64,000 bases of DNA from Eledone cirrhosa (Eukaryota). Position numbers and translations under genes: made by a program. The stretch is taken from assembly GCA_964016885.1 (NCBI GenBank), contig OZ024742.1, positions 179,180,001 through 179,244,000 of the forward strand, in the 5' to 3' direction. The notes beneath the pieces are model-generated. The model was not told where the DNA came from. It searched no databases and saw only the letters and a program-made list of their open reading frames with translations. Position 1 is the stretch's first letter; every line of letters starts with the position of its first letter. This document shows positions 2,484-60,608 of the stretch, piece by piece.

Positions 2484-3391
<908 letters not shown>

Positions 3392-3405
3392 TTTCGTTTC
3401 TGAAT

Positions 3406-5415
3406 TTGTTTAGCAAGATTCTTTATCTGAAATCGTGTGTTGAAACCGATATTGTTATACTTTGGGAGGGTCATGTTGCCAATAAGAAACACACGCACCA
3501 GTTGCTTTCACTTCAATTTGCGTTGTATGGGCTTCGTAAAGACCATAAAACGGGCTGGGACCCTGTCGCGGGACCACCAACACGGCCAGTCTGTGGGGCT
3601 AACATTGCTAGTAACTACAGACTGTCCTACTTCCTCTCTCTGATCATACGCCCCATCATTGAGATGTCCCCAGATGTGTGTGACAGCACGGAGGACCTCC
3701 TCAGCAGAATCGGCGCGGGTAACCGATCTGGGGACCTAACAAACTGCATAATAGGCAGTATGGATGTTGTGTCCCTGTATCCATCTATTGACGTGGATTT
3801 TGCTGTAGAGAAATGCGTCGAAATGATCAGCGAGAGCAAGGTTGAGTTCCGTGGGATTGATACCAGTGAGCTGGGACTTCTACTTAAGCTTACCCATAGT
3901 AATAGTTACCTAGACACTTATGACCTTAGCAACCTGTGCCCTACAAGACCAGCAAGAGGCAGACCACCTACCATTACCTCAATGGCCAAGAAAACCCACA
4001 CAGATAGATGGAACGGGTGGACCAGAGCCATACGGACACCCGAAAACCACGATGAACTGAAGAAAATGATTGCACATGCGGTAGGGGCCAGCATAAAACT
4101 AACCCTTAAGGAACATATGTTCAAATTTAATGGTAAAACATATGCCCAAGAGGAAGGAGCAGCCATTGGTGTTAGCATTGCAGGCGACATAGCTAACTTA
4201 TTCATGGTATGGTGGGACAGTAGACTTAAACAAAAACTTAATGAACAATTAGAAGACAGCTTAACCCTGATAATGTACTCCCGCTACGTAGATGATATAA
4301 ACATCGTAGTTAAGACACCCCCACTAAAGAACAGTCAGGAACTAGAGAAAAACACAATGGAAAGCATCCAGCAAATAGCAAACTCCATCCACCAGAGCAT
4401 TAGAGTTACTATAGACTACCCAAGTAGACACCCCAACCATCGATTACCTGTACTAGACACAGAGCTCTGGTTAGATACTATTAACAACCAAAAACAAATC
4501 CTCCATTCCCATTATGCCAAACCCATGACTTCCAAACATCTGATCCACCGAAACTCGGCCATTTCGGACCATACCAAAATCAACATACTGATTGCGGATT
4601 TGGTACGGGTGATGAGAAATGTGTCCCGCATGTGCAACCCCGAAGAACTAGAGAGACACATACAACACTTCATCCACCGTATGCAGTTCTCTGGCTACAA
4701 TCAGAGAGATAGAATCAGAGTGTATAAAGGAGCCAGAACCAAATGGGAAAAAATGGTAAATAATGACATAAATGGGACCTGCCCCTTGTATAGGAGCAAA
4801 TTTTGGAATAGAATAGAAAGAACTAAGAACAAGGCCAATAGAATAAACTCATGGTATGATAGCAATAAATACCAGAGTGTAATGTTCATCAATACAACCC
4901 CTAGAGGCGAACTAGCCTACAAATTTAGAAGGGCCCTAAAGAAACATAATCTCAATATTAAGATAGTAGAAAGACCTGGTACCTCCGTAAAAACACTTAT
5001 TAGCAAGACATACCCGTTCCAAAGACCCTCATGTATAGATAAGAAATGTATAACCTGTAAAATAAGCCCCCATATTAACTGTAAAACTAGAAATGTAGTA
5101 TATAGCATAAGATGTACTGAAGGACAATGTAGAAACAAAAATGTAGTGTACATAGGTGAGACAGCTCGTAGTATAGGGGAACGAATAAATGAACACTGGC
5201 GAGACCTCCAAGATAGTAAAGAATCATCTGTGCTCTACCAACATGCTAAGATAGAACACAGGGGTAAATTAGAGAGCATAGAAATAAAAATAGAATCCAC
5301 ACACAAGAAAGACGCAATGTTTAGGCAAATTACAGAGGCAGTAAGCATAAAAGAATTAAAACCAAAATTAAATAGAAAATATGAGTGGAACAGCAACATC
5401 ACAACTTACAATTAA
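3406..5415 (+). CDS. PLE reverse transcriptase + Cys-rich linker + GIY-YIG endonuclease, N-terminally truncated (first ~38 codons derive from the inverted pLTR)
   Basis: RT motifs [59 protein letters not shown]; linker C..KKC..C...NC; endonuclease VVY..C...[16 protein letters not shown]...ITEA...LN. Start is TTG; first in-frame ATG is at about 3664. Confidence 0.93.
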
Positions 5416-5720
5416 GGACAAAATGAAAACACACACACACATAGAACAAACAACTTACAATTGAAAACACACACAAAATGAAAACACACACAAGACAAAA
5501 TGAAAACACACACACACATAGAACAAACAACCAACCAACAATAAATAAATAAATAAACAAACAAATAGAAAAATATAAATAGAAAAATAGAAAAATGAAC
5601 ACAAACACACACAGACACCCGGATGTGGCGCATGCACAAACTGAGCACGCAACCCACACACAAACAAAATGGCGTAGGATAGAAGAAAGGAAAGACACAG
5701 AAACGAAGAACGAAATCCCC

Positions 5721-5765
5721 AGTCACTGAAGAGGTCACAGAGTGTGTGACGAAAGAACTATGACT
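5721..5765 (+). ncRNA. Minimal type-I hammerhead ribozyme in the PLE-A pLTR (family A)
   Basis: agtca CTGAAGA g gtcaca-gagtg-tgtgac GAAA gaac TA tgact; stems I and II pair perfectly. Confidence 0.85.
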
Positions 5766-5916
5766 ATATATATATAAACAACTATCTGGTTGTGGAACCA
5801 ACCAACCAACCAGAAATTTATAAATTTGTAAATTTATAAATATTTAATAAATTAAATTGAAGTGAAAGCAACTGGTGCGTGTGTTTCTTATTGGCAACAT
5901 GACCCTCCCAAAGTAT

Positions 5917-7156
<1,240 letters not shown>

Positions 7157-8489: not shown

Positions 8490-8490
<1 letters not shown>

Positions 8491-8721
8491 TTCATTTCTG
8501 AATTTGTTTAGCAAGATTCTTTATCTGAAATCGTGTGTTAAAACCGATATTGTTATACTTTGGGAGGGTCATGTTGCCAATAAGAAACACACGCACCAGT
8601 GGCTTTCACTTCAATTTATTATAATAAATTTAAAATAAATTTATTATAATAAATTGAAGTGAAAGCAACTGGTGCGTGTGTTTCTTATTGGCAACATCAC
8701 CCTCCCAAAGTATAACAATAT
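8490..8721. mobile_element. Fold-back relic made only of two PLE-A termini
   Basis: 8547-8630 and 8636-8721 are near-perfect inverted copies of the PLE-A end; the left arm has an extra tail (8490-8546) matching 3392-3448. Confidence 0.9.
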
Positions 8722-8900: not shown

Positions 8901-10270
8901 CATATGAAAATGTTCAAGACCCCGATGGCAGAGCTCGAGCAGTTTCGACGGCTATTTCTGGACTAAATTAGATTTTTAACGTGGTAATACATAGTCGAAC
9001 TTTTCAAGGGGTAATTCCATATATGGGAAGATTGTAGTTGTCAAAAGGATTGGTCAAAATTTCTTGTAAACACAATTAAATCTCCAACAAAGCCTATATA
9101 GGATTAATCGCTTGTGACTTTAAGACGCTGCTCTACCAACACCGATATACGTTCAGAAACCCGGCCCGGCGACATGCCACCTCACTTTCGGGCCACATCT
9201 GGGACCTCCAAGATAATAACATCACATACCATCTTACTTGGTGCTTACTTTCCAGGGCTAACTCCTACACGGGAGAACGCCGTCCGTGTAATTCATGCTC
9301 GGAGGAAACAATACAAATGCTGTTTACGAAGGACCAATTCCTAAACAAAAAAGACGAACTTGTAACCGCATGTAAACACCGATTGCGAGGACTTACCTCG
9401 CCCTCAAACCCCCTCATGAACCGAGTGGGTAGACAATCGCTGTAACATACTTCTTTTCCCCAATTGCCGAACAAGATAGGGGAAACCCCAGCATACATAG
9501 GTAGATATACTTCTTTTCTTTTTTCCCTTTATCTCTTCTTCTCACTTCCTTCCACTCCCTCTCCTCTTCCGTTTCCTTTTCCCTCTTTCGCTTACCCTTA
9601 GGCAGCTCATCGGGCTCTTGTAGCCTCAGTACCCCCACCCCAGTAAATTCTATATAGCATTGGCCGAAAACGCTATACCGGCTAAAAATATAGCAGCGGT
9701 TTTAGACCCTAGTTTTTAAAATTATTTTTATTATTTAATTTTTTAATATTATTTTTATTTATTATTTTAAATTTTTTTAATTTCAATTTATTAACTTTTT
9801 AATTTTTTTATTTTTCTATTTTATAACTTCCCACTCTCAGATTCCTCTAGAATTCTTTTTTCGCCTGCTTTCTAGCTAGCCTAATTTCTTCCACACTCCT
9901 TAGAATTTGCTGTATAGATTTCACTTTCAACGCTTGACCGGCTCCACCCACTCCCTCATTGTTCTACAGGCAAGTTCAGCCACCAAAAACCTCTAACCCA
10001 CCGCCATGAAAGATTTAATTGTGTTTACAAGAAATTTTGACCAATCCTTCTGACAACTACAATCTTCCCATATATGGAATTACCCCTTCAAAAGTTCGGC
10101 TATTTATTATCACGCTAAAAATCTAATTTAGCCCAAAAATAGCCGTCGAAACGGCTTCAGTTCTATCGTCGGGGTCTTGAACATTTTCATATTACCCATT
10201 CTACTAACCTAAGTATTGAGTACTCTGGTGCGTTATGGTCCACCTTGTTCCTTACCACACTTCCTTCGTT
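8901..10270 (+). mobile_element. 5'-truncated Naiad-like PLE with inverted pLTR and GIY-YIG C-terminal remnant
   Basis: 8901-9082 is an inverted copy of about 10010-10192; 9088-9390 reads KAYIGLIACDFK..ATSLSGHIWDLQD..FLNKKDELVTACKHR across frameshifts; tail shared with 28148-28230, 38440-38522 and 59445-59530. Confidence 0.75.
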
Positions 10271-12678: not shown

Positions 12679-12716
<38 letters not shown>

Positions 12717-12799
12717 ATAATAATAAATTTGAAGACTAAAATCCAAAGAGGGCTCGATAAGGATAAATATATATCAAATATATAAGAACCATAGAGCAA

Positions 12800-12944
12800 A
12801 TATTTATTAAAATAACAGATTAAAGTTTAAGCAAAGAATTGCTGCTTTCACCCTTAACGGGATCTTCTGAGTTTCAGAAGATCCCGTTAAGGGTGAAAGC
12901 AGCGATTCTTTGCTTAAACTTTAATCTGTTATTTTAATAAATAT
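12800..12944. repeat. Near-perfect hairpin, ~71-bp arms with a 3-nt spacer
   Basis: 12800-12870 versus 12874-12944; the right arm runs into (TA)n. Confidence 0.9.
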
Positions 12945-13339
12945 ATATATATATAGATACATATATACATATATACAGCTGAAGCCGTATATTATAATCA
13001 CTTATAATATCAATCGGATATTGTATTATAAAAGGCTTCATCCTTGAGTGATCACAATGAGCATCTTCTTCTATGTGTGGATGTAGGTGCAAACACGCAC
13101 ACGCACACACACACATATATATATATATATACATATATATATAGTATTAAGGATACTATTTATGGTTATGCAAATACAAAAACCATTTGTAGTTATATAT
13201 ATTTTTACCAACCCTAAATAGTGATAGGCTACAACCTTATTACCAGTAAGTTAAATAGCTCAATGTAATAACATCAGATGTTTTACAGAGCAGTTATATA
13301 TAAGTTATAAGAATCAAAGTTCTGTTCAAATCATTTATA

Positions 13340-13386
13340 TGCTTACAGTTGTTTCCTCCAAACCGAGGTTTGGATTCTTCGGAGCA
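13340..13386 (-). ncRNA. Hammerhead family B, inverted copy
   Basis: Reverse complement of 14463-14509. Confidence 0.7.
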
Positions 13387-14462
13387 ATTTATTAATGAAT
13401 GAACACTTATATGACCTCCTTTTCAACCCAAGAGACATACAGATACATATGCAAACATTGTTGCTTAGTGGGTCGACATCCATTATAACATTTAGTGTGG
13501 CAGTATACATTTAGAGATTACATTCATATTAAAAGAGGATACAATCAAAAATTCAGGTTAAAATACAACATGAAATTAATGCGAAAGGATAGTCATAAGC
13601 AGTTATTGAGTGCAATAGTTACACATGTGGCAAGCACGTGTGTCTTGTTTATATAATGCTATAGTGCAGCAGAGTGTTACATGTAATAGAAGCACTTAAA
13701 CGGGTGATCAAGAGTGTTAAGGGGGTTGAACTGGTAGTGAATCCTTTATATAAATGTTATGGAAGCCTGTGCGTGGAGAAATAATATAAACATTAAAAAT
13801 ATTGGAAATGCGTAGCAAAGCGATGATATGGATTTCATGTACAGCACCATTTTCATAGTCCGGGGAGCGTATTATTCAGATTATGTGCCCCTCACATAAT
13901 CCACGACGATTCGATATTGGGCGTTTGACGAATATCGAATCGTCGTGGATTATGTGAGGGGCATATAATCTGAATAATACGCTCCCCGGACTGTGAAAAT
14001 GGTGCTGTACATGAAATCCATATCATCGCTTTGCTACGCATTTCCAATATTTTTAATGTTTATATTATTTCTCCACGCACAGGCTTCCATAACATTTATA
14101 TAAAGGATTCACTACCAGTTCAACCCCCTTAACACTCTTGATCACCCGTTTAAGTGCTTCTATTACATGTAACACTCTGCCGCACTATAGCATTATATAA
14201 ACAAGACACACGTGCTTGCCACACGTGTAACTATTGCACTCAATAACTGCTTATGACTATCCTATCGCATTAATTTTATGTTGTATTTTAACCTGAATTT
14301 TTGATTTTATCCTCTTTTAATATGAATGTAATCTCTAAATGTATACTGCCACACTAAATGTTATAATGGATGTCGACCCACCAAGCAACAATGTTTGCAT
14401 ATGTATTTGTACGTCTCTTGGGTTGAAAAGGAGGTCATATATGTGTTCATTCATTAATAAAT

Positions 14463-14509
14463 TGCTCCGAAGAATCCAAACCTCGGTTTGGAGGAAACAA
14501 CTGTAAGCA
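14463..14509 (+). ncRNA. Hammerhead family B (CCGAAGA core)
   Basis: tgct CCGAAGA a tccaaac-ctcg-gtttgga g GAAA caactg TA agca. Confidence 0.7.
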
Positions 14510-15429
14510 TATAAATGATTTGAACAGAACTTTGATTCTTATAACTTATACATATATATATATATGAAGTTTATAGAAAATGTAGGAAGCTGACGCAGAA
14601 AATAACTAAATACGTTGGCTGCTATAAATAGCTTTGAAAACCGAGTAAAGACCCCTTAGAGACCGGAAAATGTGTAAAGTGGCCGCTACGAAGAGTGGAA
14701 CATCATATTTTACAGATACAGACTCACTACTCTAAATATTTATAGCAACAAACTGTAATTGCAATTATTTTTGTGTCTGACTTTCTTATAATTTCATAAT
14801 CACCCAGCGCCCCAGCGCTTCGAAAATTTGAACTTAATAGATGTATTATATATTCAATGTGGTGCAGTGATCGTTGAGAACATTTTGAGGATATTTCGCT
14901 TCTATTTCCAGCAGGTGTTTTGCCAGAGTCTTAGAGTGTATAACAATATATTTTGCAGTATTTGTTCCGCCTCTCTGTACTCAGAGTACAAATCCAGCTG
15001 AGTACAACTTAGCATTTCATTCTTTATACGTCTATAAAATAACTTACTATACCAGTAGCTGAGCATTCCACAGACACGTGTACCCCTAACCTACTTCTCA
15101 AAAAGATTCGGAATGACACAGTATGCGTCAAGACTGATGCTTTGAATTACAGGTACGACTCATTTTTGCCAGCCAAGTGGACTGGGACAATACGAAATTA
15201 GGTGTCATGTTTAAGGACACATCGCACCGGCGGGAATCGAATTCGCGATAGTAAGTCGTGAGAAGAATACATCAATTAGTAAGTTACGTGCCTCTGAATA
15301 AACAGTAAAAAAGAAATGAAAGAAAATTAAATCACAGAGAGGCTCCTCACAATGCCTTATGGTATGAGATCTTGCTTGGATGTGTTGAGAGCATCCTTAA
15401 ATCCATTTTTAAGAGTTGTGTATTGCTAG

Positions 15430-24849: not shown

Positions 24850-25565
24850 GGTGGCGACAGCATGTAGACGATTCGCTGGCTGGATCTTGAGGACTTTCCT
24901 TACAAGAGATCGAGACACCATGTTGACACTGTGGAGGACTTTTGTCCTAAGCCGCCTGGACTAGTGCTCCCAGCTGTGGTCACCCCATAGTGTCGAACTA
25001 ACCACGGAGCTTGAGGCAATCCAGCGAAGCAACACCAAGAGGATTGCCAAGATTTGGGAGACAAGCTACTGGGATAGGCTGAAGGAACTGAACCTCTACT
25101 CCTTGGAACGAAGACGGGAGAGATACGCAGTGATCTACATGTGGAAAATCCTGGAGGGACTAGCACCAAACTTTGGCATTGGGAGCTGGACCAACCGTCG
25201 AACAGGACGTCACTGTGTGGTGCCAAAGGTCCCGTCTTCCACATCTAGAATAAGGAGCAGGTATTGCAATAGCCTGGGATTCAAGGGCCCTCAACTCTTC
25301 AACAGGCTGCCGAGGCATCTGCGAGACTTGCATGACGTGGAGGTGGATGTCTTTAAGAGACATCTCGACACCTTGTTATCCAGGATCCCGGATGAGCCCA
25401 CAGCAAGACACGAGGGAAACCTAAGGGCAGCAGCAACAAACTCCCTCCTACACCAGTGCCAACCTATACAGGCTGGAGATAAAATGTGTAGCAACAAGGG
25501 CGGTGCCCCAGCATGGCCTCAGCCGGATGGCTTAAACAGGTAAAAGAGTAAAAGAGTAAAAGAGT
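24849..25565 (+). mobile_element. 5'-truncated CR1-group LINE (RT thumb/C-terminus) with (GAGTAAAA)n tail
   Basis: [68 protein letters not shown]; one in-frame stop; tail gtaaaagagtaaaagagtaaaagag. Confidence 0.85.
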
Positions 25566-26557: not shown

Positions 26558-26565
<8 letters not shown>

Positions 26566-27510
26566 ATACTTTGGGAGGGTCATGTTGCCATTAAGAAACA
26601 CACGCACCAGTTTGCTTTCACTTCAATTTATTATAATAAATTTATAAACTTAGGAATATATAAATATCCGGTTGTGCCTCCATAAAAACGCTTATTAGCA
26701 AGACATACCTTTTCAAAGAACCCGTTGTATAGATAAGAAATGTATAACCTGTAAATTAAGCCCCCATATTAACTGTAAAACTAGATATGTAGTATATAGC
26801 ATAAGATGTACTGAAGGACAATGTAGAGACAAAAATATAGTGTACATAGATGAGACAGCTCGTAGTGTAGGGGAACGGATAAATGAACACTGGCGAGACC
26901 TTCAAGATAGTAAAGAATCATCTGTACTCTACCAACATGCTAAAATAGGACATAAGGGTAAATTAGAGAACATAGAATAAAAATAGAATCTACACACAGA
27001 AAAGACGCAATGTTTAGACAAATCACAGAGGCAATAAACATAAAAGAATTACAACCAAAATTAAATAGAAAACATGAGTGGAACAGGAACATCACAACTT
27101 ACAATTAAGGACAAAATGAAAACACACACGCACATAGAACAAACAACCAACCTGTAACATGTAAATAAACAAATAAATATACGAATATAAAACACACACA
27201 CAGACACCCGGATGTGGCGCATGCGCAGACTGAGCACACAACACACACAGAGAAACAAGATGGCGTAGAACAGAACAAAGAGGAGGCACAAAAACAAAGA
27301 AAAGAATCCCCAGTCACTGAAGAGGTCACATAATGTGTGACGAAAGAACTTTGACAATATATAAACAAACATCTGGTTGTGAAACCAACCAACCAACCGG
27401 AAATTTATAAATTCCTAAATTTATAAATTTATTATAATAAATTGAAGTGAAAGTATATGGTGCGTGTGTTTCTCATTGGTAACATGACCCTCCCAAAGTA
27501 TAACAATATC

Positions 27511-27512
<2 letters not shown>
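26558..27512 (+). mobile_element. Second PLE-A-related copy: inverted pLTR + decayed GIY-YIG fragment + pLTR
   Basis: 26675-27106 aligns with 4980-5415 with stops and indels; 26558-26668 is an inverted pLTR; hammerhead at 27312-27355. Confidence 0.9.
27312..27355 (+). ncRNA. Hammerhead family A
   Basis: gtca CTGAAGA g gtcaca-taatg-tgtgac GAAA gaac TT tgac. Confidence 0.8.
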
Positions 27513-27591
<79 letters not shown>

Positions 27592-28005: not shown

Positions 28006-28149
<144 letters not shown>

Positions 28150-28265
28150 CGAAGGAAATGTGGTAAGGAACCAGGTGGACCATAACGCACCAAAGTACTC
28201 AATACTTAGGGTAGTAGAGTGGGTAATAGGAACCAGTAAGAACCCGACGGGGTCTTACTTGTTCC

Positions 28266-28304
<39 letters not shown>

Positions 28305-28770: not shown

Positions 28771-28906
28771 CGTTATTCCGGGTTGAGTCGGAGGTAACCA
28801 CAGTAAGTAAGGTACTCAATACATTGCTGAGTATTGCAGGGATTCCTGATGATTTCTAAAGAATGAAACAGTTCTCGTCCTGTAGAATCTCATCTATATT
28901 AAAACT
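28771..28906 (+). mobile_element. PLE terminus relic (family G): inverted tail + hammerhead
   Basis: 28771-28825 is the reverse complement of about 31052-31106; 28881-28906 matches 31013-31038. Confidence 0.7.
28840..28890 (+). ncRNA. Hammerhead (family G) with monomeric 4-bp helix III
   Basis: ggattc CTGATGA t ttc-taaa-gaa t GAAA cag-ttctcgtc-ctg TA gaatct. Confidence 0.65.
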
Positions 28907-32642: not shown

Positions 32643-32826
32643 TTTCGTTTCTGAATTTGGCGTAGGATAGAAGAAAGGAAAGGCACAGAAACGAAGAAAG
32701 AAATCCCCAGTCACTGAAGAGGTCACAGAGTGTGTGACGAAAGAACTATGACTATATATATATAAAAAACTATCTGGTGCGTGTGTTTCTTATTGGCAGC
32801 ATGACCCTCCCAAAGTGTAACAATAT
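32643..32826 (+). mobile_element. PLE-A mini relic: ~15-bp inverted tail + hammerhead pLTR with internal deletion
   Basis: tttcgtttctgaattt joined to ggcgtaggatag...; hammerhead at 32709-32753 matches 5721-5765; deletion between ctggt microhomologies. Confidence 0.85.
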
Positions 32827-33343: not shown

Positions 33344-33453
<110 letters not shown>

Positions 33454-33577
33454 GGAGGCGAGTTTTATTGTAGTACAATAAAGCAATGCAGATATCGGAT
33501 AAGAAGTACTCTACAGTTGTAGGACTGGAGTATAAATAATATATCAGATCAAAAGATGGTTAAAAGAGTTCCATGAA

Positions 33578-33644
33578 TTTTATTATGCGCATTTCAAAAA
33601 CAAATATCATCATGCGATGACATTTGCGTTTTCGTCAGATAAAA
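33578..33644 (-). ncRNA. Type-I hammerhead (family I)
   Basis: Reverse complement: ttttat CTGACGA aaacgcaaatgtcatc-gcat-gatgatatttgttttt GAAA tgcgca TA ataaaa; palindromic helix III ATGCGCAT. Confidence 0.85.
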
Positions 33645-34689
33645 TAGGGAGACATAATATGAAGGTTAAAAAACACTTGTGAATAGTGCAGTTTTAAATC
33701 AACATATGAAAAGTAGTTTTAGATTGATGTGTGATATTGGGAAAAAAATTGAGGGGGTTGGAAAGGATGAAAAAGAGGAGGAGATGAGAGTAAAGAATGG
33801 GAGAGGAGGAGTATAATAAGAAAGGATGAGATAGGAGGAGAGATGGGGATATATAGAGAGAGATAACTTTTATAACTGAGAAAAATGTATTGTTTTACAG
33901 AGAGAGGTTAAAAAACCGTTGGAAGATAATATATAAATTAAAAGAATTCGAAAATTAACGAAGAGAAAAATTTAAAAATAATGTTAAATTAAGGTTTTTA
34001 TATTGAAGGGTTTAATAATATGTGCGATGAAAAGAAATTGTTTATATGTATTAAGAATAATATTAAGTTATGGTTTGAATATTGAAGGGTTTAATAATAT
34101 GTGCGATGAAAAGAAATTGTTATGTATTATTAAAAAAAAAAAAAATAGTAACGTAATTAAGGATATATTGTGAAAAGAAGTAGAAGAGTGAATGAATATG
34201 TGTAATATGTAGAAGTTAGATGAGCATGAAAGGGAGGAAAAAATAATGAATTGAGGATGTTTATGTTTATGAAGGATTTTTCAAGGTGATACTATAAAGT
34301 GTTTAAAAGGTTAATAGTAAATTTTATGGCCAGTGATAGGATGGAAGAAGGAACAGTGGATATATTGTCGTGAGTAATAATGAGAATTGAGAAGTATCTA
34401 GGAAGAAAAGGTACAGATTAGAGATTAGAAATTAAAAGAAAAAAGGAAAAAAGAGGAAGAAAGGGAAGCGATAAATAGGAGTGATATAGAATGAGTAACT
34501 TGTATTATATAATGTATAATAAATAACATTGAAATAAGGTAGAAATATGGGTATATTTTTAAAGAAATATATATGTATATATATATATATGTGCCTTTGA
34601 GATAAAAGGATTTTAAATTGGTAAAGTATTAGATATTAGCTGTATACTATATGGAATGTTCTGTGGAATCTATGCAAGCAGAGACAAAA

Positions 34690-35893
34690 CAAGTCAGTGC
34701 GTCTATTTATTATAGAATCTAAATTAGATATAATGGTAAATTTCTCACATAAATAGAGATTACATGTCTTGGATAGAGAGGCATTCAAGTATGGAGAAGC
34801 AGAACAAACCTTCCTCTAAGAGATGTTATAGTTAATATTTTTGTCTTTCAAGGACCATATGAGTTCTGAGAGTGCCGTGTTGGTTCTTTTAAGTTGGTAT
34901 TATGATGATTATAAAGACGTTCTTTAAAGGAGGTGCAAGTGGATCCAAAATAGGTAAAGGAATTGGTGTCAGTTATAACTTTACATTCATAGATTAAGTT
35001 TTTTTCAAGACAATGGTTGTTGAGAGGACATTTATTTTTAACAGGGCAATTACAATTGCGATTAGAGAAATTAACAGAGTTATTAACAAGTGACCTAGTG
35101 TTATCTATAGAAGGAATTGGATTGGAGGAGTTATTTACGATAGGAATAATAGTTTCTTGATTTAAATTGGGATTAAGAACATTTAACAAAGTTGCGTTTG
35201 ACGTTGTATTTGGGTTTGCAGAAATTAGCCTAGAGTTAACAATGACGTCGGGAGTACTATTACTATTATTATGATATTCAGTGTTGGAAGGAAGAGATTT
35301 AGTATTTAGTATTTTATTGTTGTGTTTAGAGATAATGTTGGAGATGTTGGAGGAGGTCGAATAGGAAAATGTTATAGTGTGTTTGTTAAATATTTTACTA
35401 TAGATATGTGAGGGAGGGAAGCATTTATTTAAGGCACTAAAGAATAATTTAGGAATATTATTATTAAGAGAGACGAAGAAAGGAGCATTATACCAGATTA
35501 TGTTTTTGTATCTAGGTCTTTTATTAAAGTTATTGGAATGATCATGATTAATTATTCTACTGTAAGATCTTCTGGAATTTGTTTCTTTACTATATTTGAT
35601 TTTATCAGGATAACCGGCTTTAGAAAGCGCGTTTTTATAGTAATTGGCGTTAGCATCAGAGATGTTTTTATTAGATGATAGGTTGGATATTCTTTTTCCA
35701 ATATTACTAACTATAGCATTCTTAATATTAGTGTGGTGGTTAGATTTAAAATTAACATAATTTAGATTCTCATTGTTTTTATGGTAAAGGTAATATAGGC
35801 CAGTGTCAAGATTAAGTGATACATCCAAGAAATTAGTTAGTTTGATGTTGTTATCAAATTTAATTTTTAAGTTATGTTGGTTAAAGTGATTAC
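34690..35893 (-). pseudogene. PLE RT C-terminus/thumb + CNC-CPL-C linker + GIY-YIG (Naiad-like), frameshifted near 34880
   Basis: NFLDVSLNL..YVNFKSNH..RISNLSS..Y..AL..AGY..IIWYNAPF..FPPSH..IFNKHT..SYST..CNCPVKNKCPLNNHCLEKNLIYECKV..YFGST..FKERLYNH. Confidence 0.88.
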
Positions 35894-36135
35894 GCCAAGA
35901 TGGCGTAGGACAGAACAAAGGAGAGGCACAAAAAACAAAGAAAAGAATCCCCAGTCACTGAAGAGGTCACAGAATGTGTGACGAAAGAACTTTGACAATA
36001 TATAAACAACCATCTGGTTGTGGAACCAACCAACCAACCGGAAATTTATAAATTCATAAATTATAATAAATTGAAGTGAAAGTAATTAGTGCATGTGTTT
36101 CATATTGGCAACATGACCCTCCCAAAGTAAAAAAA
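35894..36135 (+). mobile_element. PLE-A-type pLTR with hammerhead (35953-35996)
   Basis: Aligns with 27256-27500. Confidence 0.85.
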
Positions 36136-36157
36136 TACATATATATGCATATATATA

Positions 36158-38360: not shown

Positions 38361-38365
<5 letters not shown>

Positions 38366-38520
38366 AACGACCAGGATCCCCACGGTTGAGCTCAAGCCGT
38401 TTCGACGGCTTGAGCTCAGCCGTCGGGGTCCGACTCGTTCCTATTACCCACTCTACTACCCTAAGTATTGAGTACTTTGGTGCGTTATGGACCACCTGGT
38501 TCCTTACCACATTTCCTTCG

Positions 38521-38522
<2 letters not shown>
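38361..38522. mobile_element. Short fold-back relic of the 8901-10270 PLE family
   Basis: ataggaacga...gagctcaagccgt-ttcg-acggcttgagctc...tcgttcctat followed by the family tail. Confidence 0.75.
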
Positions 38523-47707: not shown

Positions 47708-47713
<6 letters not shown>

Positions 47714-47945
47714 ATTATAAAGTGAACAACACAATATATAACTACTCCATTACCAAAGGTTTCAGGACACTGAGGTTAACCTCTCTGTCTGAGGAACGAT
47801 CTAGACGTATGTTAAAAATGTCTAGGGTCCTGAAACCTTTGGTAATGGAGTAGTTATATACTGTGTTCCTCACTTTATAATTAAATATCTCTGTTCTATA
47901 CATAGAGCACTCATTTTACTTTGTTTTTTCTTCGGAAATACTTAT
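47708..47945 (+). mobile_element. Fold-back PLE terminus relic (family J)
   Basis: 47708-47768 is inverted against 47827-47888; flanked by TA repeats. Confidence 0.75.
47784..47849 (+). ncRNA. Hammerhead (family J)
   Basis: tctgt CTGAGGA acgatctagac...gtctagggtcct GAAA cc-ttt-gg TA atgga. Confidence 0.65.
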
Positions 47946-52526: not shown

Positions 52527-53745
52527 GTTATCTCTTTCTCTTATTTTCGAGTATATTATTTGACCGGCCACCTTCCTGGTAGCAAGGTTGTAAAAGAAAA
52601 GAAATTGTCATCCCTTGAATCGCAAGAATGTTTTGCAAATTTTGAAGGTGCCAGCTATCGCAGCCATTTGTAGACTGTGAATTAGGGAGCTGCGCTCTTT
52701 GTCCGCAAATCTAAGTTCAGTCATACTTTGGTCCAAGCGGGTTGGTATATAACCCGTAGCTCCAATAATGATGGGTATAAAACTAAAGGTGTATCTTGGA
52801 TACTGTATTTGTAAACTCCTCATCAATGGTCCGTAGATGTCCTCCTCCTTCTCCTGTATTTTTCTGACAACGTTTACATCAAGTGGGCAGCTGATCTCAA
52901 CAACAGAACACGTTTTCAATGTGTGGTCCCACACAACAATATCAGGCCGGTTGTGCTTTAATTTGGTGGCAGTTTTTATTTTCAGGTTCCACCAGTATTC
53001 CTTAGTACCATCTATCTCAATATATTCTTCCTCGTTTGTTGTTAATTTTGTTTTCCGAAGAGCATTCCAGATAGTTCTAGCTATCCCATCGTGTCTCATG
53101 GGGAGGTAGTAGCGAGATGACATTCTTTCGCAGCTGGCAACAATGTAGCTTACATCTTCGATCTTTGTTTTACATAGCCTACATTTATTGTCAGCTGATG
53201 GCCCTCCTCTTTTGTGCAGCAGATATTTGGTAGGGAGTTATTTTTCCTGTATTGCATAGAGATATCCTTCAAGGTGTGATGTCATAAACTTGTCGGAACT
53301 CCATGCCAGGCTTTTTGAGTGGTTTATACCCTCTATGGTCTGTGGTTTACGTCTCAAATATCCATGCACAACTTTTTCTGTAAATTGGTCAATTTTTTCA
53401 TCTTGTTTGAACATTGAATAGGATCTTCCGATTTCTCGGGATGAGATATTTATATCAGGCTTTATTCCATATCTCTCCTCCAGATCAGTGGCTATTCCAA
53501 TGATATTTTTTTTTCATGCTCATAAACCTTGGAAAGATGGTTGCCAATCTTTTTCCACTGTTGAAGATGTTGCTTCAGTGTTACTATTCGGGTCTCATAT
53601 GATGTTAATATGGATTTTAGACCCCGGCCTTGCGTGAGAAGTATAGCCTATCCACATCACAATTTATGTTAAAGTTCCTAGTAACACTGAGAAGTTTGAG
53701 AGTTCTAACATCCATCTCACTTAGTTCTTGCAATGACCAGTCAGC
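52527..53745 (-). mobile_element. Dong/R4-clade non-LTR fragment (thumb, CCHC-like knuckle, RLE)
   Basis: DVDRLYFSRK..CRLCK..EDVSYIVASC..RHD..NRPDIVVWD..VEISCP..K..Y..PIIIGATG..ICKTFL; bounded by (CATA)n/(TATG)n. Confidence 0.85.
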
Positions 53746-55640: not shown

Positions 55641-56129
55641 ACATGGTATGCAAATTCTCGAAATTTCGAAGTGCTGAGGATTTAAGAAGTTCATAGAAAA
55701 TATAAGAAACTGAGATGCAGAAATTATCTGTGAACAGAGTTAGTTGCCATAAATTGTAGCTTAGAAAATTGGGTAAAACACTTCTGTATGTATGGTCCCG
55801 TAACTTCTGATAGAGTAGTAGGGGCGCCGTGTTGACATACGGCGTTTCATGGTCATTTTAAGCCTGGCGGAGCCCATACCTCTCCAGGCCTGAGTACAGT
55901 ATATTTCTTACAGAAAGAGAAAGGATCGACTCCGGTACTAGACTGGTACTTTTTTATGGACCTCGAAAGGATGAAAGGCAAAGTTGACATCGGCGGAATT
56001 TGAACTCAGAAAGCAGAGAGCCGGGACGAATACCATAAAGCATTCTATCCGACGTTCTACTTCACCGCCTAAAATACCCCTGTAGATGGAAAAAATCGTT
56101 ACCAGCTATTTTATAGGCTATTATTAATA

Positions 56130-56540
56130 TAGCAGCCAAGGGCGGTGGATTGGCAGTATCGGTAGAGGGTCGCAAGCCATGCTTTCCACCATAGTTACGC
56201 CCCTTTACGATCTGAGTTCAAATCCCGCCGAGGTTGACTTTGCCTTCCATCCTTACGGGGTCGATAAAATAAAGTACCAGTCATGCACTGGATAATTGCT
56301 GGCCTTGTGCCTATAGTAGAAATAATTATTAACATAGCAACCAAGGGCGATGGATCGGCAGTATCGGTAGAAGGTCGCAAGCCATGCTTTCCAGCATAGT
56401 TACGCCCCTTTACGATCTGAGTTCAAATCCCGCCGAGGTTGACTTTGCCTTCCATCCTTACGGGGGTCGATAAAATAAAGTACCAGTCATGCAATGGGTA
56501 ATTGCTGGCCTTGTGCCTAAAGTAGAAATAATTATTAATA
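56130..56540 (+). mobile_element. Tandem dimer of Meta-like SINE
   Basis: Two ~205-bp units sharing private variants (gcaagccat, gccttccat, gtcatgca). Confidence 0.9.
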
Positions 56541-57093
56541 TACCAACCAAATGTTATTTTCTGCTTTTGAATTTCTACATTTTCTATGTAATTTATATAC
56601 GTATGTTTGCCTGTACAATTATGCAGGTTCATTTACTTTTATAAATAAGTATGTATGTCTGCATATCTGTATGCAGGTCTCTGCTTGTGCATGCTTGTGT
56701 ATGCATGTAAGCACGTTTACACAAGGCATGCAGGTGTGAGCTTTTTTGCATGTGGCAATTAAAATGTATCGTTCAAGATATAAGCTAGTGCCGCCCCCTT
56801 CAACCACCCAGGTCACAGCACCGACAACTCTTGTCATATAACATTTCCTTTACATGTAAATCGTGGCAGTAAAGGCGATAAGCGATGTCAGACATTTGTT
56901 TGTGTTTCATTGACCAAAGAAAAGAGAGCGTTGGTAATTTCTTTCTTTAAGCATTCTGATAAAAAATACAAATAATATCAAAAAATAAAACAGTGAAATA
57001 ATTATAATTGGTCATAGTTTACATATTTTATATAGTGTATATATACTATATGCTTTGTATTAGTGGTATTGAGGGAGTGAAACAGATACACAC

Positions 57094-57124
<31 letters not shown>

Positions 57125-57168
57125 TGTATGTATGTATGTATGTATGTACCCACACAAACACATTCATT

Positions 57169-57266
<98 letters not shown>

Positions 57267-57397
57267 ATGAGTGAAAGAGAAAGAAAGAAAGAGTAAAACA
57301 TATGTATATATGTACACACATGTATACATATGTGTATCTGTCTGTTTATTTGTCATGTATTAACTATATTTACACATGTGCATATATATGATACACG

Positions 57398-57431
<34 letters not shown>

Positions 57432-57577
57432 CGCGTACATTATAATACATACATACATACATACATATAGAGATAGGCAGAAAAACTAATGTAAATCGGT
57501 CCTCCATCGGTTTCGGCGATAACACTTCCAGTTTTTCGATCAATTGAAATACTAACACATTGAATTATTAGGTAAAT

Positions 57578-57772
57578 AGGGCGGTGGATTGGCAGTATCG
57601 GTAGAAGGTCGGACAGCATGCTTTGACTCATAGAGTTACGGCCCTTTCCATTCTGAGTTCAAATCCCGTCGAGGTTAACTTAGACTTTCATCCTTACGGG
57701 GTCGATAAAATAAAGTACCAGTAATGTACTGGGTAATTGCTGGCCTTGTGCCAAAAGTAGAAACAATTATTA
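57578..57772 (+). mobile_element. tRNA-derived Meta-like SINE
   Basis: Full-length match with A-box-like TGGCAGTATCGG and B-box GAGTTCAAATCC. Confidence 0.88.
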
Positions 57773-58176
57773 TGTAAATGGTTGAGAATTTCAAAGTCCC
57801 TATATACTTCACGGAATTCTTATGGAGATTCCACGTCACAGTGTACAACATGGCTGGCCTTTTGAATTCCATATAAAATCCATCCAACAGGCTTCCCTCA
57901 CATTTCTCGCCTACCTAACTTCAATCATGATATTTAGGTTAACTTGTGGCTATGCTGAAAGTTAGCTTAAGATGCCACCGAGTGTCTCGGAACTGGGATC
58001 TCATGATTGAAAACCGAATGTCTTACTCACGCTGCCATGCCGACACCTATATATATACACATACACTCTCTCACACACACGCACACACACACACACACAC
58101 ATACACACACATACATACACACAAACATACAAACACACACACACACACATACACACACATACATACACACAAACAT

Positions 58177-58208
<32 letters not shown>

Positions 58209-58288
58209 CTATATAGATATACATATGTATTTGCCACGCTGCCATGCCGACACCTATATATATACACATACACTCTCTCACACACACG

Positions 58289-58351
<63 letters not shown>

Positions 58352-58694
58352 ACATACACACAAACATACACACACACATATATATATGTCTATATACACA
58401 TACATATGTATACGCACTAACAATAATACAGCTTGCCGGAGACACGTGTGTGTGTTTTGCCTTTCAACCTTTCGAGGTCGCTAAAATAAAGTACTAGTCT
58501 AGCAGTGGGGGTCGTTTCTTCCTCGAAATCTATTTCGCAATTCCTCTCCCTCATTCTCAATCCTTCTCTGGAAGAAATTTGTTCAGGCCTGGGGAGAGTT
58601 GGGCTCCGCCAGGCTTTAAAAGGCTCAAGAATCACAGTATGTCACTATAGCACGCCTACGACTCTACCAAGATTTACGGGACGAGAAGAAGAAT

Positions 58695-58751
<57 letters not shown>

Positions 58752-58759
58752 CATATATA

Positions 58760-59283
58760 TATTATAATTGTTTCTACGTTAGGCACAAGGTCAGCAATCA
58801 CCCAGTGCATTACTGGTACTTTATTTTATCGACCCCGTAAGGATGAAAGGCAAAGTTAACCTTGGCGGGATTTGAACTCAGAATGGCAAGGGCCGTAACT
58901 CTATACGTCAAAGCATGGCGTCCGACCCTCTACCAATACTGCCAATCCACTGATTATAATAATATATAATTGTTTCTACGTTAGGCACAAGGTCAGCAAT
59001 TACCCAGTGCATTACTGGTATTTTATTTTATCGACCCCGTAAGGATGAAAGGCAAAGTTAACCTTGGCGGGATTTGAACTCAGAATGGCAAGGGCCGTAA
59101 CTCTATACGTCAAAGCATGGCGTCCGACCCTCTACCAATACTGCCAATCCACTGATTATAATAATATATAATTGTTTCTACGTTAGGCACAAGGTCAGCA
59201 ATCACCTAGTGCATTACTGGTACTTTATTTTATCGACCCCGTAAGGATGAAAGGCAAAGTTAACCTCGGCGGGATTGAACTCA
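58760..59283 (-). mobile_element. Tandem array of about 2.6 SINE units (period about 202 bp)
   Basis: Near-identical repeats starting at about 58765, 58968 and 59170. Confidence 0.9.
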
Positions 59284-59444
59284 AGATTATAATAATATAT
59301 AATAATATATGTGTGTGTGTGCGCGCGCAAGAAGGAAATTGTACGTTATCAGGTCGCCGATGAGGTAGAAATGCTGTTGTCCGTGTTCGCCTTATGAAAT
59401 AGTGTTTTGTTTGTGAGTGTGCGTGTACATATATATATATATAT

Positions 59445-59620
59445 AACAAAGAAGGTGTGGTAAGATACCAGGTGGACCATAACGCACCAGAGTACTCAAT
59501 ACTTGGGGTAGTAGAGTAGGTAATATGAAAAGATTCAGGGCCCCGACGGCTGAGCCCCGGCCGTTTCGACAGCTAGATCCGTCGAAACGGCCGGAACTCA
59601 GTCGTTGGGGTTCTGAATCT

Positions 59621-59628
<8 letters not shown>
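59445..59628. mobile_element. Fold-back relic of the 8901-10270 PLE family
   Basis: 59524-59571 is inverted against 59581-59628. Confidence 0.7.
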
Positions 59629-59713
<85 letters not shown>

Positions 59714-59892
59714 AATTGAGTGAGAAAACCCCAGTACTATTCAGATTATTGATTTATCGATGCTGAAAGTATGAACGGTAAAGTCAGCCTCGGTAAGATT
59801 TTAACACAGTGCAGAGAGCCAGAATGAATACTGTAGAGTACCACGTCATATCAACCCGTACGTATTTCTATCTGTAAACATACGTAGAGTGG

Positions 59893-60152
59893 GGGCACGT
59901 GACCTACTGGTAACGGTGTTGGACTTACGATCATAATGTCTTGGGTTCGATTGCTGGATTGCGTGTTATGATCTTGAGCAAAACACATCATTTCACGTTG
60001 TTCCAGTATACTCAGCTGAAGATGAGTACCAGCAATAGCCGGGGGTTTATTCCTGCGATGGACTGGCTTCTTGTCCAGATGGGAGTCTTGCTCTCAGTCG
60101 CTTCACGCCATGAAACCGGGATAAGCACCGGCCAAAAGAGCCTTCTGGCTTA
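59893..60152 (+). mobile_element. tRNA-derived CORE-like SINE (second family)
   Basis: GGTTCGATT B-box, then tcttgagcaaaacacatcatttcacgttg..cagtatactcagctg..atgagtacc; related minus-strand copies near 20890-21070, 40080-40200 and 49270-49390. Confidence 0.65.
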
Positions 60153-60608
60153 AGATAGATTTTAGACTAGACATACGTAGACATGTATGGATCCACAACT
60201 GCTGGCGGATTCGCAGGGGGTACCGTTGTGATATATGACATTTCTTGAAGGCTTTAAACCTGGTGGAGCCCTTTCCCTCTTCAGCTTTTGATACAGGCAA
60301 TTTCTTCCGCTGAAAGAGAGAGTGACTAAGACAGGAAGTGAGAAAGAGATATAGAGGAAGAATCAACCCTAGTATTGGGCTGGTACTTTATAACCGACCT
60401 TGAAAGGATGAAAGGCAAAATTGACCTCCACATGATTTGAACTCAGAGCATAGATATCCAGAGTAAATAGAGTAAACAGAGTAAACAGAGTAAAAAGCCA
60501 ACGTTTTTACGACTCAGCTAATGCGCCGCCACATACACACACACACAGAGACTTTTTTTTCCAATTCCAACCCACCTGCCCCCTCAATCTATCTTATTTC
60601 TCATTCTT

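What the first reader, a model, noticed from the sequence alone, without database searches (positions are those of the whole stretch)
3392..5924. Asymmetric inverted ends suggest priming from both ends of the self-complementary (TA)n target
Seen: in PLE-A the 3' end stops at an internal ...taacaATAT that merges with (TA)n, while the inverted 5' copy continues about 57 bp further (3392-3448). The same short-arm/long-arm pattern recurs at 8490-8721, 8901-10270 (tttcATAT), 12944, 13143-14552 (acTTATA), 28148-28268, 28771-28906, 38361-38522, 47708-47945 and 59445-59628. Known: PLEs often have inverted pLTRs and a tail extension. Inference: because (TA)n reads the same on both strands, both cut ends can prime cDNA on the RNA 3' region, one at the tail and one at an internal AT microhomology. 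The two cDNAs then join head-to-head and routinely yield fold-back insertions.
Basis: partly seen in the sequence, partly recalled or inferred. Interest (0 to 1): 0.78.

Follow-up and report, generated by a model that had tools for sequence, protein, structure and literature searches.

The report
Retrotransposon primed from both target ends
Copies of a Penelope-type jumping gene sit inside TA repeats with two outward-facing ends that almost always stop at two different fixed points, which likely means the element copies its RNA from both cut DNA ends in one reaction.

Summary
3392-5924 is a 5'-truncated EN+ Penelope-like element (Neptune/Nematis type) in (TA)n, in a 3.0-Gb animal genome. The family has two fixed 3' ends 57 nt apart: short (S, 14,086 exact copies) and long (L, 13,165). 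Both lie inside the transcript; 487 copies read through L. Two-ended head-to-head inserts pair one S with one L in 101 of 107 cases (50% if independent), whereas single-ended copies use either (12 S, 10 L). In 47 of 84 the S arm reaches further 5' than the L arm, so neither arm contains the other and fold-back of one cDNA cannot make them. About 22 families show the same offset ends. Best reading: one ribonucleoprotein primes both target ends, one at each start site (0.65). No asymmetric-target family was found here as a control. Tail, inversion and two start sites are published; the near-strict S/L pairing and the case against fold-back were not found in print.

The parts
2486..3391 (.). (TA)n target array, left flank
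3392..3519 (-). Inverted L arm (128 nt), 3' end pointing outward at the long start site L
3392..3448 (-). 57-nt tail between sites S and L; in the master it is ORF codons about 9-28 and continues past L
3519..3521 (.). Inner head-to-head junction of the two arms (0-1 nt)
3521..5415 (+). 5'-truncated ORF (about the C-terminal 630 of 1265 aa): RT with YVDD at 4285-4296, thumb, linker, endonuclease
5032..5058 (+). CX4CxxC linker (Neptune/Nematis type)
   Evidence: translation; definition in PMC8557442
5095..5367 (+). GIY-YIG endonuclease with CCHH
   Evidence: Pfam PF01541 E=2e-4, just under the curated cut-off; motif
5652..5666 (+). Recurrent cDNA stop zone (about -311 to -329 from L)
   Evidence: 28 of 168 arm stops in -300..-339; 7 of 61 single-ended or other copies
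5721..5765 (+). Hammerhead-like motif (CTGAAGA, stem II, GAAA, stem I); predicted cut after 5760, not tested
5765..5776 (+). Internal (TA)6 box, almost never used as a 3' end
5816..5854 (+). AT-rich near-palindrome, frequent inner junction
5899..5901 (+). First ATG of the next tandem unit's ORF, inside the pLTR
5921..5924 (+). Short start site S (ATAT shared with the target)
   Evidence: 140 of 291 ends exactly here
5925..7155 (.). (TA)n target array, right flank
8490..8721 (.). Family A mini insert, L/S, junction in the AT palindrome
32643..32826 (.). Family A insert, 16-nt L arm plus S arm to -311 (no arm overlap)
26558..27513 (.). Family A exception with two short ends
8901..10270 (.). Family B (Hydra-type EN fragment 9080-9445), S/L offset 78
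28148..28268 (.). Family B mini insert L/S
38361..38522 (.). Family B mini insert S/L
59445..59628 (.). Family B mini insert L/S
12714..12944 (.). Another family, offset about 87, junction at a hammerhead-like core
13143..14552 (.). Another family, offset about 160
28771..28906 (.). Another family, offset 68, arms not overlapping, hammerhead-like core in the short arm
47708..47945 (.). Another family, offset 58

Best explanation
This is a Penelope-like retrotransposon whose copies end at two fixed internal points 57 nt apart, and the one-short/one-long inverted inserts are likely made when one protein-RNA complex cuts both strands of (TA)n and primes reverse transcription from both cut ends, one at each start site. 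SHOWN: two precise ends, both inside the tandem transcript near the ORF start; equal use genome-wide; near-strict S/L pairing in two-ended inserts; either end in single-ended inserts and on the long arm; arms that overlap in sequence, share a haplotype and stop at variable places; 0-3 nt joins in about half. KNOWN FROM A RELATIVE IN VITRO (PMC11167929): a PLE protein nicks and extends both strands and starts at two internal sites that bound the tail. INFERRED: two RT active sites (a dimer) are loaded at S and L before extension, so the two primers cannot use the same site. Each cDNA runs 5'-ward until it stalls (AT palindrome, hammerhead edge, about -320) and is released. The two cDNA 3' ends join by short microhomology or end joining, and fill-in gives a head-to-head insert. 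If only one primer succeeds, an ordinary 5'-truncated copy results. The start sites would be set by RNA-protein geometry; the ATAT match and the symmetry of (TA)n would help both primers anneal but do not choose the sites. Unresolved: one RNA molecule read twice (strand displacement), two pLTR copies of a tandem RNA, or two RNAs from one locus.
For: S+TA 14,086; L+TA 13,165; read-through 487. 281 of 291 TA-abutting 3' ends at S or L. 101 LS, 3 LL, 3 SS of 107. Chromosome-1 anchor sample: 81 LS, 2 LL, 1 SS of 84; single-ended 12 S and 10 L. S arm further 5' in 47, L in 19, within 20 nt in 18 of 84; L arm ends inside the tail in 17; both arms enter the ORF in 7. Own partner is the best-matching arm in 25 of 32. 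Cross-family joins do not show the rule (about 9 S+L and 5 L+L by hand; P=0.42), so the rule belongs to same-template events. In L090 the inverted arm matches the upstream tandem unit (7 differences in 951) and not the terminal one (70 in 963). 22 recurrent families with fixed offsets of 34-168 nt, including Hydra-type and Poseidon-type ORFs. Strand-change joints and direct L-arm-to-S-arm joints in raw Illumina reads of two samples.
Against: No biochemistry on this element. 6 of 107 inserts break the rule. In vitro, PAc showed no difference in start site between strands (PMC11167929), which neither shows nor explains pairing. L arms do not pile up at S, as they would if the leading cDNA blocked the trailing one, and arm lengths in bp do not differ (S longer in 44 of 84). 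Arm identity could partly come from later gene conversion. L090 is a single case and may be a secondary insertion; the 20 further tandem loci fetched gave no informative difference. 61 of 151 events were single-ended or unresolved. The 107 set mixes samples, 20 loci having been picked for long ORFs.
Confidence: 0.65

Rival explanations
1. One reading: the self-complementary (TA)n target plus AT microhomology is the cause, since both cut ends have the same 3' sequence and can pair with AU words in the RNA.
For: Both family-A sites carry AATAT^CG. 124 of 479 TA-TA segments have terminal inverted arms against 0 of 46 CA-CA or TG-TG segments (loci were picked for TA elements). S microhomology is 3 nt or more in 10 of 19 families.
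Against: No significant enrichment (P=0.067 at S; P=0.38 at L; the null takes the better phase and is conservative). The internal (TA)6 box ends at most 5 of 291. Symmetry alone predicts 50% mixed pairs, not 94%. Inverted pLTRs with tail and 8-10-bp TSDs occur in A. vaga (PMC3846280). PAc starts without homology (PMC11167929).
Confidence: 0.15
2. A double-stranded or hairpin DNA intermediate is made first, and the GIY-YIG endonuclease cuts it with a stagger, one strand at S and one at L, before joining to the target ('EN-mediated resolution', PMC8557442).
For: Gives one S and one L automatically. S and L share an AT-rich word like the target.
Against: In 17 of 84 the L arm ends inside the tail, so the arms share no sequence to pair. 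The offset is 34-168 nt depending on family, unlike a fixed nuclease stagger (inference). RT start sites measured in vitro fall on the tail ends (PMC11167929).
Confidence: 0.12
3. One cDNA (or an antisense RNA) folds back and copies itself, giving the inverted arm (self-priming, PMC3846280).
For: 13 of 84 junctions have 10-30-nt palindromic overlaps. 18 of 84 stop within 20 nt of each other against 6.1 by permutation, partly an effect of the palindrome. The 19 L-longer cases are compatible.
Against: In 47 of 84 the S arm has 5' sequence that the L arm lacks while the L arm has the tail that the S arm lacks; the window copy is such a case. Inner junctions are mostly unique, so a pre-inverted master is not being recopied.
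Confidence: 0.05
4. Two independent insertions in one TA array, later fused by deletion and homogenised, or chimeric long-read assembly.
For: TA arrays are insertion hot spots, and cross-family joins exist.
Against: Predicts random S/L pairing and unrelated arms; seen 101 of 107 mixed and 25 of 32 best-matching partners. Family-fixed offsets. Joints in raw short reads of two samples.
Confidence: 0.03

Closest known systems
Poseidon PLE of Anolis (PAc), in vitro (Frangieh et al. 2024, PMC11167929)
   Same: RT plus C-terminal GIY-YIG; hammerhead in the pLTR; both strands nicked and extended; two internal RT start sites early in the ORF that bound the tail; AT-rich cut sites; a dimer predicted by AlphaFold2.
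   Different: The paper does not treat inverted inserts or pairing of the two sites in one event. Its tail is 30-40 nt and its sites lie in an AC-rich stem-loop without target homology. Here the tail is 57 nt (34-168 across families), both sites read AATAT^CG, and no strong fold was found (z -1.3).
Canonical EN+ PLE insertions: Penelope/Poseidon, Neptune, Nematis, Hydra, Naiad (PMC8557442, PMC3846280)
   Same: [quoted passage not shown]
   Different: There the pattern is described in words and put down to EN resolution or antisense self-priming. Here it is the majority product, S/L pairing is 94%, and arm content excludes self-priming for over half.
LINE-1 twin priming and proposed dual priming (passages of PMC2837659)
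   Same: Both target strands prime cDNA; inverted pieces are joined with little or no microhomology.
   Different: L1 uses the poly(A) end plus a variable internal site, and its pieces do not overlap; it is described as a variant of TPRT. Here both sites are fixed and internal, most arms duplicate the same RNA stretch, either site can carry the long arm, and it is the main route.

Membership tests
EN+ Penelope-like element | Single ORF with RT and C-terminal GIY-YIG endonuclease | tested here: met
   RVT_1 and GIY-YIG at E 2e-4, both under the curated cut-offs, on the window ORF; no Pfam hit on the 1265-aa full ORF; DKSG, YVDD and VVYSI..YIGET motifs conserved in 34 homologues
EN+ Penelope-like element | CCHH motif with two Cys between GIY and YIG | tested here: met
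   CTEGQC ... EH ... QH in the translation
EN+ Penelope-like element | Partial tandems forming pLTRs, 5' truncation, inverted 5' copy | tested here: met
EN+ Penelope-like element | Optional tail at one end (30-40 bp in print) | tested here: met
   57 nt in family A; 34-168 across families; longer than published
EN+ Penelope-like element | Hammerhead ribozyme in the pLTR | tested here: inconclusive
   Core and stems I and II present by pattern and fold; no hammerhead among the 150 of 350 Rfam rows shown; cleavage not testable
Neptune/Nematis clades | CX2-5CxxC linker between RT and EN | tested here: met
   CIDKKCITC at 5032-5058
Neptune/Nematis clades | RT tree placement among reference clades | not tested
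   No named PLE references among 71 homologues; Neptune versus Nematis left open
Hydra clade (family B) | CxxC and CxH around the EN's E and N, no CCHH, (TA)n target | tested here: met
   Read by eye on the 9080-9445 translation against PMC8557442; no tree
L1-type twin priming | Two inverted pieces of one RNA lineage primed from both strands | tested here: met
L1-type twin priming | First primer at the RNA 3' poly(A), pieces not overlapping | tested here: not met
   Both ends internal; the L arm reaches past S in 67 of 84
L1-type twin priming | Target-site duplication around the insert | not testable with these tools
   Cannot be read inside (TA)n

The most novel reading that the evidence does not exclude
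Two-ended priming is the default way Penelope-like elements integrate. An asymmetric RT-endonuclease dimer holds one transcript at two start sites and primes both target ends at once, so the 'inverted pLTR' and the 'tail on one side' are simply the second cDNA, and the complex needs no separate second-strand step. This would hold across Neptune-, Hydra- and Poseidon-type elements.
Probability: 0.4. Interest if true: 0.75.

Novelty: new variant of a known kind. Interest (0 to 1): 0.56.

Why it matters
How PLEs form their inverted ends and one-sided tail is stated as open in PMC8557442 and PMC11167929. The pairing rule links the two start sites measured in vitro to the genomic structure, and gives a sharp prediction for an assay that already exists: paired ends should be S/L, not 1:2:1. 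It would make twin priming a main route rather than a side product. It also explains thousands of short palindromes in this genome that repeat-annotation tools could file as MITEs.

Tried and rejected
Genome-wide counts of LS, LL and SS pairs were not obtained; pairing rests on fetched loci. Coordinate-only pairing gave 40 of 45 mixed, but 4 of its 5 exceptions were not single two-ended inserts, so sequence-level counts are used. In-genome control with an asymmetric target: none found. A scan of 725 inverted pairs (output cut, 334 not TA-abutting, seen in part) and a search with a distant PLE protein gave only TA-flanked PLEs. A race on one RNA (S always ahead): 47 vs 19 is largely the 57-nt head start, and the stop correlation (rho 0.31) is confounded by long-selected loci; not used. 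RT stuttering as the source of (CT)n or (CA)n next to ends: 15 of 667 ends, in the same polarity as background TA arrays; dropped. RNA structure at S-L: z -1.3 to +0.8. Rfam: TA noise only. Complex prediction for two copies of residues 30-250: no verdict. No RNA holder listed. The window's own junction was not among the joints shown (235 rows not shown; the reads come from other, diverged samples). Earlier-findings look-ups were empty. In family counts I dropped low-complexity or mis-typed clusters (F12, F40, F43, F55, F71; one cluster of 7).

Full report
WHAT IT IS. The window lies in a 3.0-Gb animal assembly (G000:C3). The nearest named protein is a predicted Octopus vulgaris RT at 67% identity. 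3521-5415 is the 3' half of a single ORF with RT and GIY-YIG. A full copy encodes 1265 aa with DKSG, YVDD, a CX4CxxC linker and CCHH. A hammerhead-like motif lies at 5721-5765. By the features in PMC8557442 this is an EN+ Penelope-like element of Neptune/Nematis type; no tree was made.

TWO FIXED ENDS, BOTH INTERNAL. Tandem copies show that the master runs on past the long end into the ORF (7 of 20 long loci). The first ATG is 82 nt upstream of L, so S and L lie in the first 28 codons, and both read AATAT^CG. Exact genome-wide counts: S then TA 14,086; L then TA 13,165; L read-through 487; reversed-pattern controls 0. Of 291 3' ends abutting a TA array in the fetched loci, 145 are at S (140 exactly), 136 at L and 10 elsewhere. 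The perfect internal (TA)6 box accounts for at most 5, and 70 copies read through it.

PAIRING RULE. All two-ended family-A inserts in loci up to L262 plus the window: 101 S/L, 3 L/L, 3 S/S of 107 (P=1e-23 against 50%). This set mixes samples. The cleaner sample is 192 exact anchors on chromosome 1, which collapse to 151 events plus 4 internal tandem junctions: 84 two-ended (81 S/L, 2 L/L, 1 S/S), 22 single-ended abutting TA (12 S, 10 L), 39 ending in other sequence, 6 unresolved. The two-ended share is a floor: three 'single-ended' copies carry a few bases of an L arm, and some unresolved rows are second anchors of S/L pairs. Either end can sit on the long or tandem arm, so the rule is mutual exclusion, not a fixed order.

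ARM CONTENT. Among 84 clean non-tandem S/L inserts the S arm reaches further 5' in 47, the L arm in 19, and they stop within 20 nt in 18; in 17 the L arm ends inside the tail; in 7 both enter the ORF. In S-longer inserts, including the window copy (128-nt L arm, 2404-nt S arm), each arm holds sequence that the other lacks, so two primings on RNA are needed. Inner joins, read from BLAST boundaries and so approximate: 1-3 nt overlap in 34, 4-7 in 8, 10-30 (palindromic) in 13, flush in 6, extra bases in 23. The partner arm is the closest match in 25 of 32 tests. In L090 the inverted arm matches the upstream tandem unit, not the terminal one; 20 more tandem loci gave no second informative case. 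Joins between different families exist (window 33450-36137, L133, L155, L185, L195 and others) but run about 9 S+L to 5 L+L (hand count); they are best read as nested or deleted neighbours.

GENERALITY. Family-blind, 217 of 1008 TA-flanked segments are self-inverted at their ends: 193 offset by 25 nt or more, 20 symmetric (several artefacts), 4 between. 22 recurrent families have fixed offsets of 34-168 nt. Family B has Hydra-type EN motifs, ends at 0 and -78, and a third end at -304 in 2 of 20 loci. L283 has a Poseidon-type ORF without the linker and a tail of about 45 nt. Raw RAD-seq reads of two samples, laid on 3392-5924, show the same strand-change joints and direct tail-to-S-arm joints such as 3422>5888 and 3470>5886. 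These are other copies in diverged individuals, often with one read start; they show that the structure class exists outside the assembly, not this locus.

THE CLAIMED CAUSE. Microhomology to (TA)n averages 2.4 nt against 1.8 by chance at S in 19 families (P=0.067), and 1.9 against 1.8 at L in 10 families (P=0.38). Target symmetry alone predicts 50% mixed pairs. All PLE families met here are in (TA)n, so the (CA)n control could not be run. A. vaga elements have inverted pLTRs, a tail and 8-10-bp TSDs (PMC3846280). Chlamys target (CA)n or (C)n and are said in general terms to share the tandem/inverted structure and tail (PMC8557442), but no rates are given. Symmetry may raise the rate; it is not shown to be needed.

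MODEL. See Best explanation (0.65). The ends, pairing and arm content are shown. Both-strand priming at two internal sites is published for a relative. The dimer, simultaneous loading and cDNA-cDNA joining are inferred.

LITERATURE SEEN. PMC11167929: parts 1-2 of 4 of the whole text; its three text supplements had no hit for my terms, and its supplementary figures, which I could not see, may bear on novelty. PMC8557442: passages and section 9. PMC3846280: passages and Discussion. PMC2837659, PMC13282606, bioRxiv 2026.07.22.740005 and bioRxiv 2024.12.14.628481: passages only. Searches found no paper stating the S/L pairing rule or twin priming for PLEs. [quoted passage not shown]

VERDICT. A real feature of a known element class. 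New variant of a known kind; interest 0.56.

Noticed in passing
window 33450-36137; L133, L155, L185, L195, L226, L231: Inserts with one end from family A and the other from an unrelated family, joined without a TA spacer; nested events or two-RNA priming.
   Followed up: partly
window about 5652-5666 (-311 to -329 from L): Strong recurrent cDNA stop in both arm types and in single-ended copies; may be an RNA 5' end or a structure.
   Followed up: partly
L085 ORF residues about 250-470: Long Asn/Thr/His-rich insert in frame before the RT, like the N-rich inserts of A. vaga Penelopes.
   Followed up: no
L135, L161, L163, L164, L228, L240, L241: Minimal two-ended inserts of 37-60 bp (L arm of about 11-20 nt plus a short S arm).
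   Followed up: partly
window 9966; L184, L194: Family B uses a third 3' end 304 nt upstream of its long end, once paired with the -78 end.
   Followed up: partly
G000:C1:132947049-132947576: Tandem array with a 46-bp period containing the L read-through motif, 12 copies listed.
   Followed up: no
all loci: TA arrays have polar edges: (CT)n or (CA)n before, (GA)n or (TG)n after (CT-then-TA 50, GA-then-TA 1).
   Followed up: partly
window 55941-60447, 58763-59283: Many copies of a repeat of about 200 bp, partly in tandem and in both orientations; SINE-like by recall, not tested.
   Followed up: no
window 24965-25543 and 52608-53237: ORF fragments resembling non-LTR retrotransposon C-termini (recalled; no Pfam hit).
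   Followed up: no
   Followed up: partly
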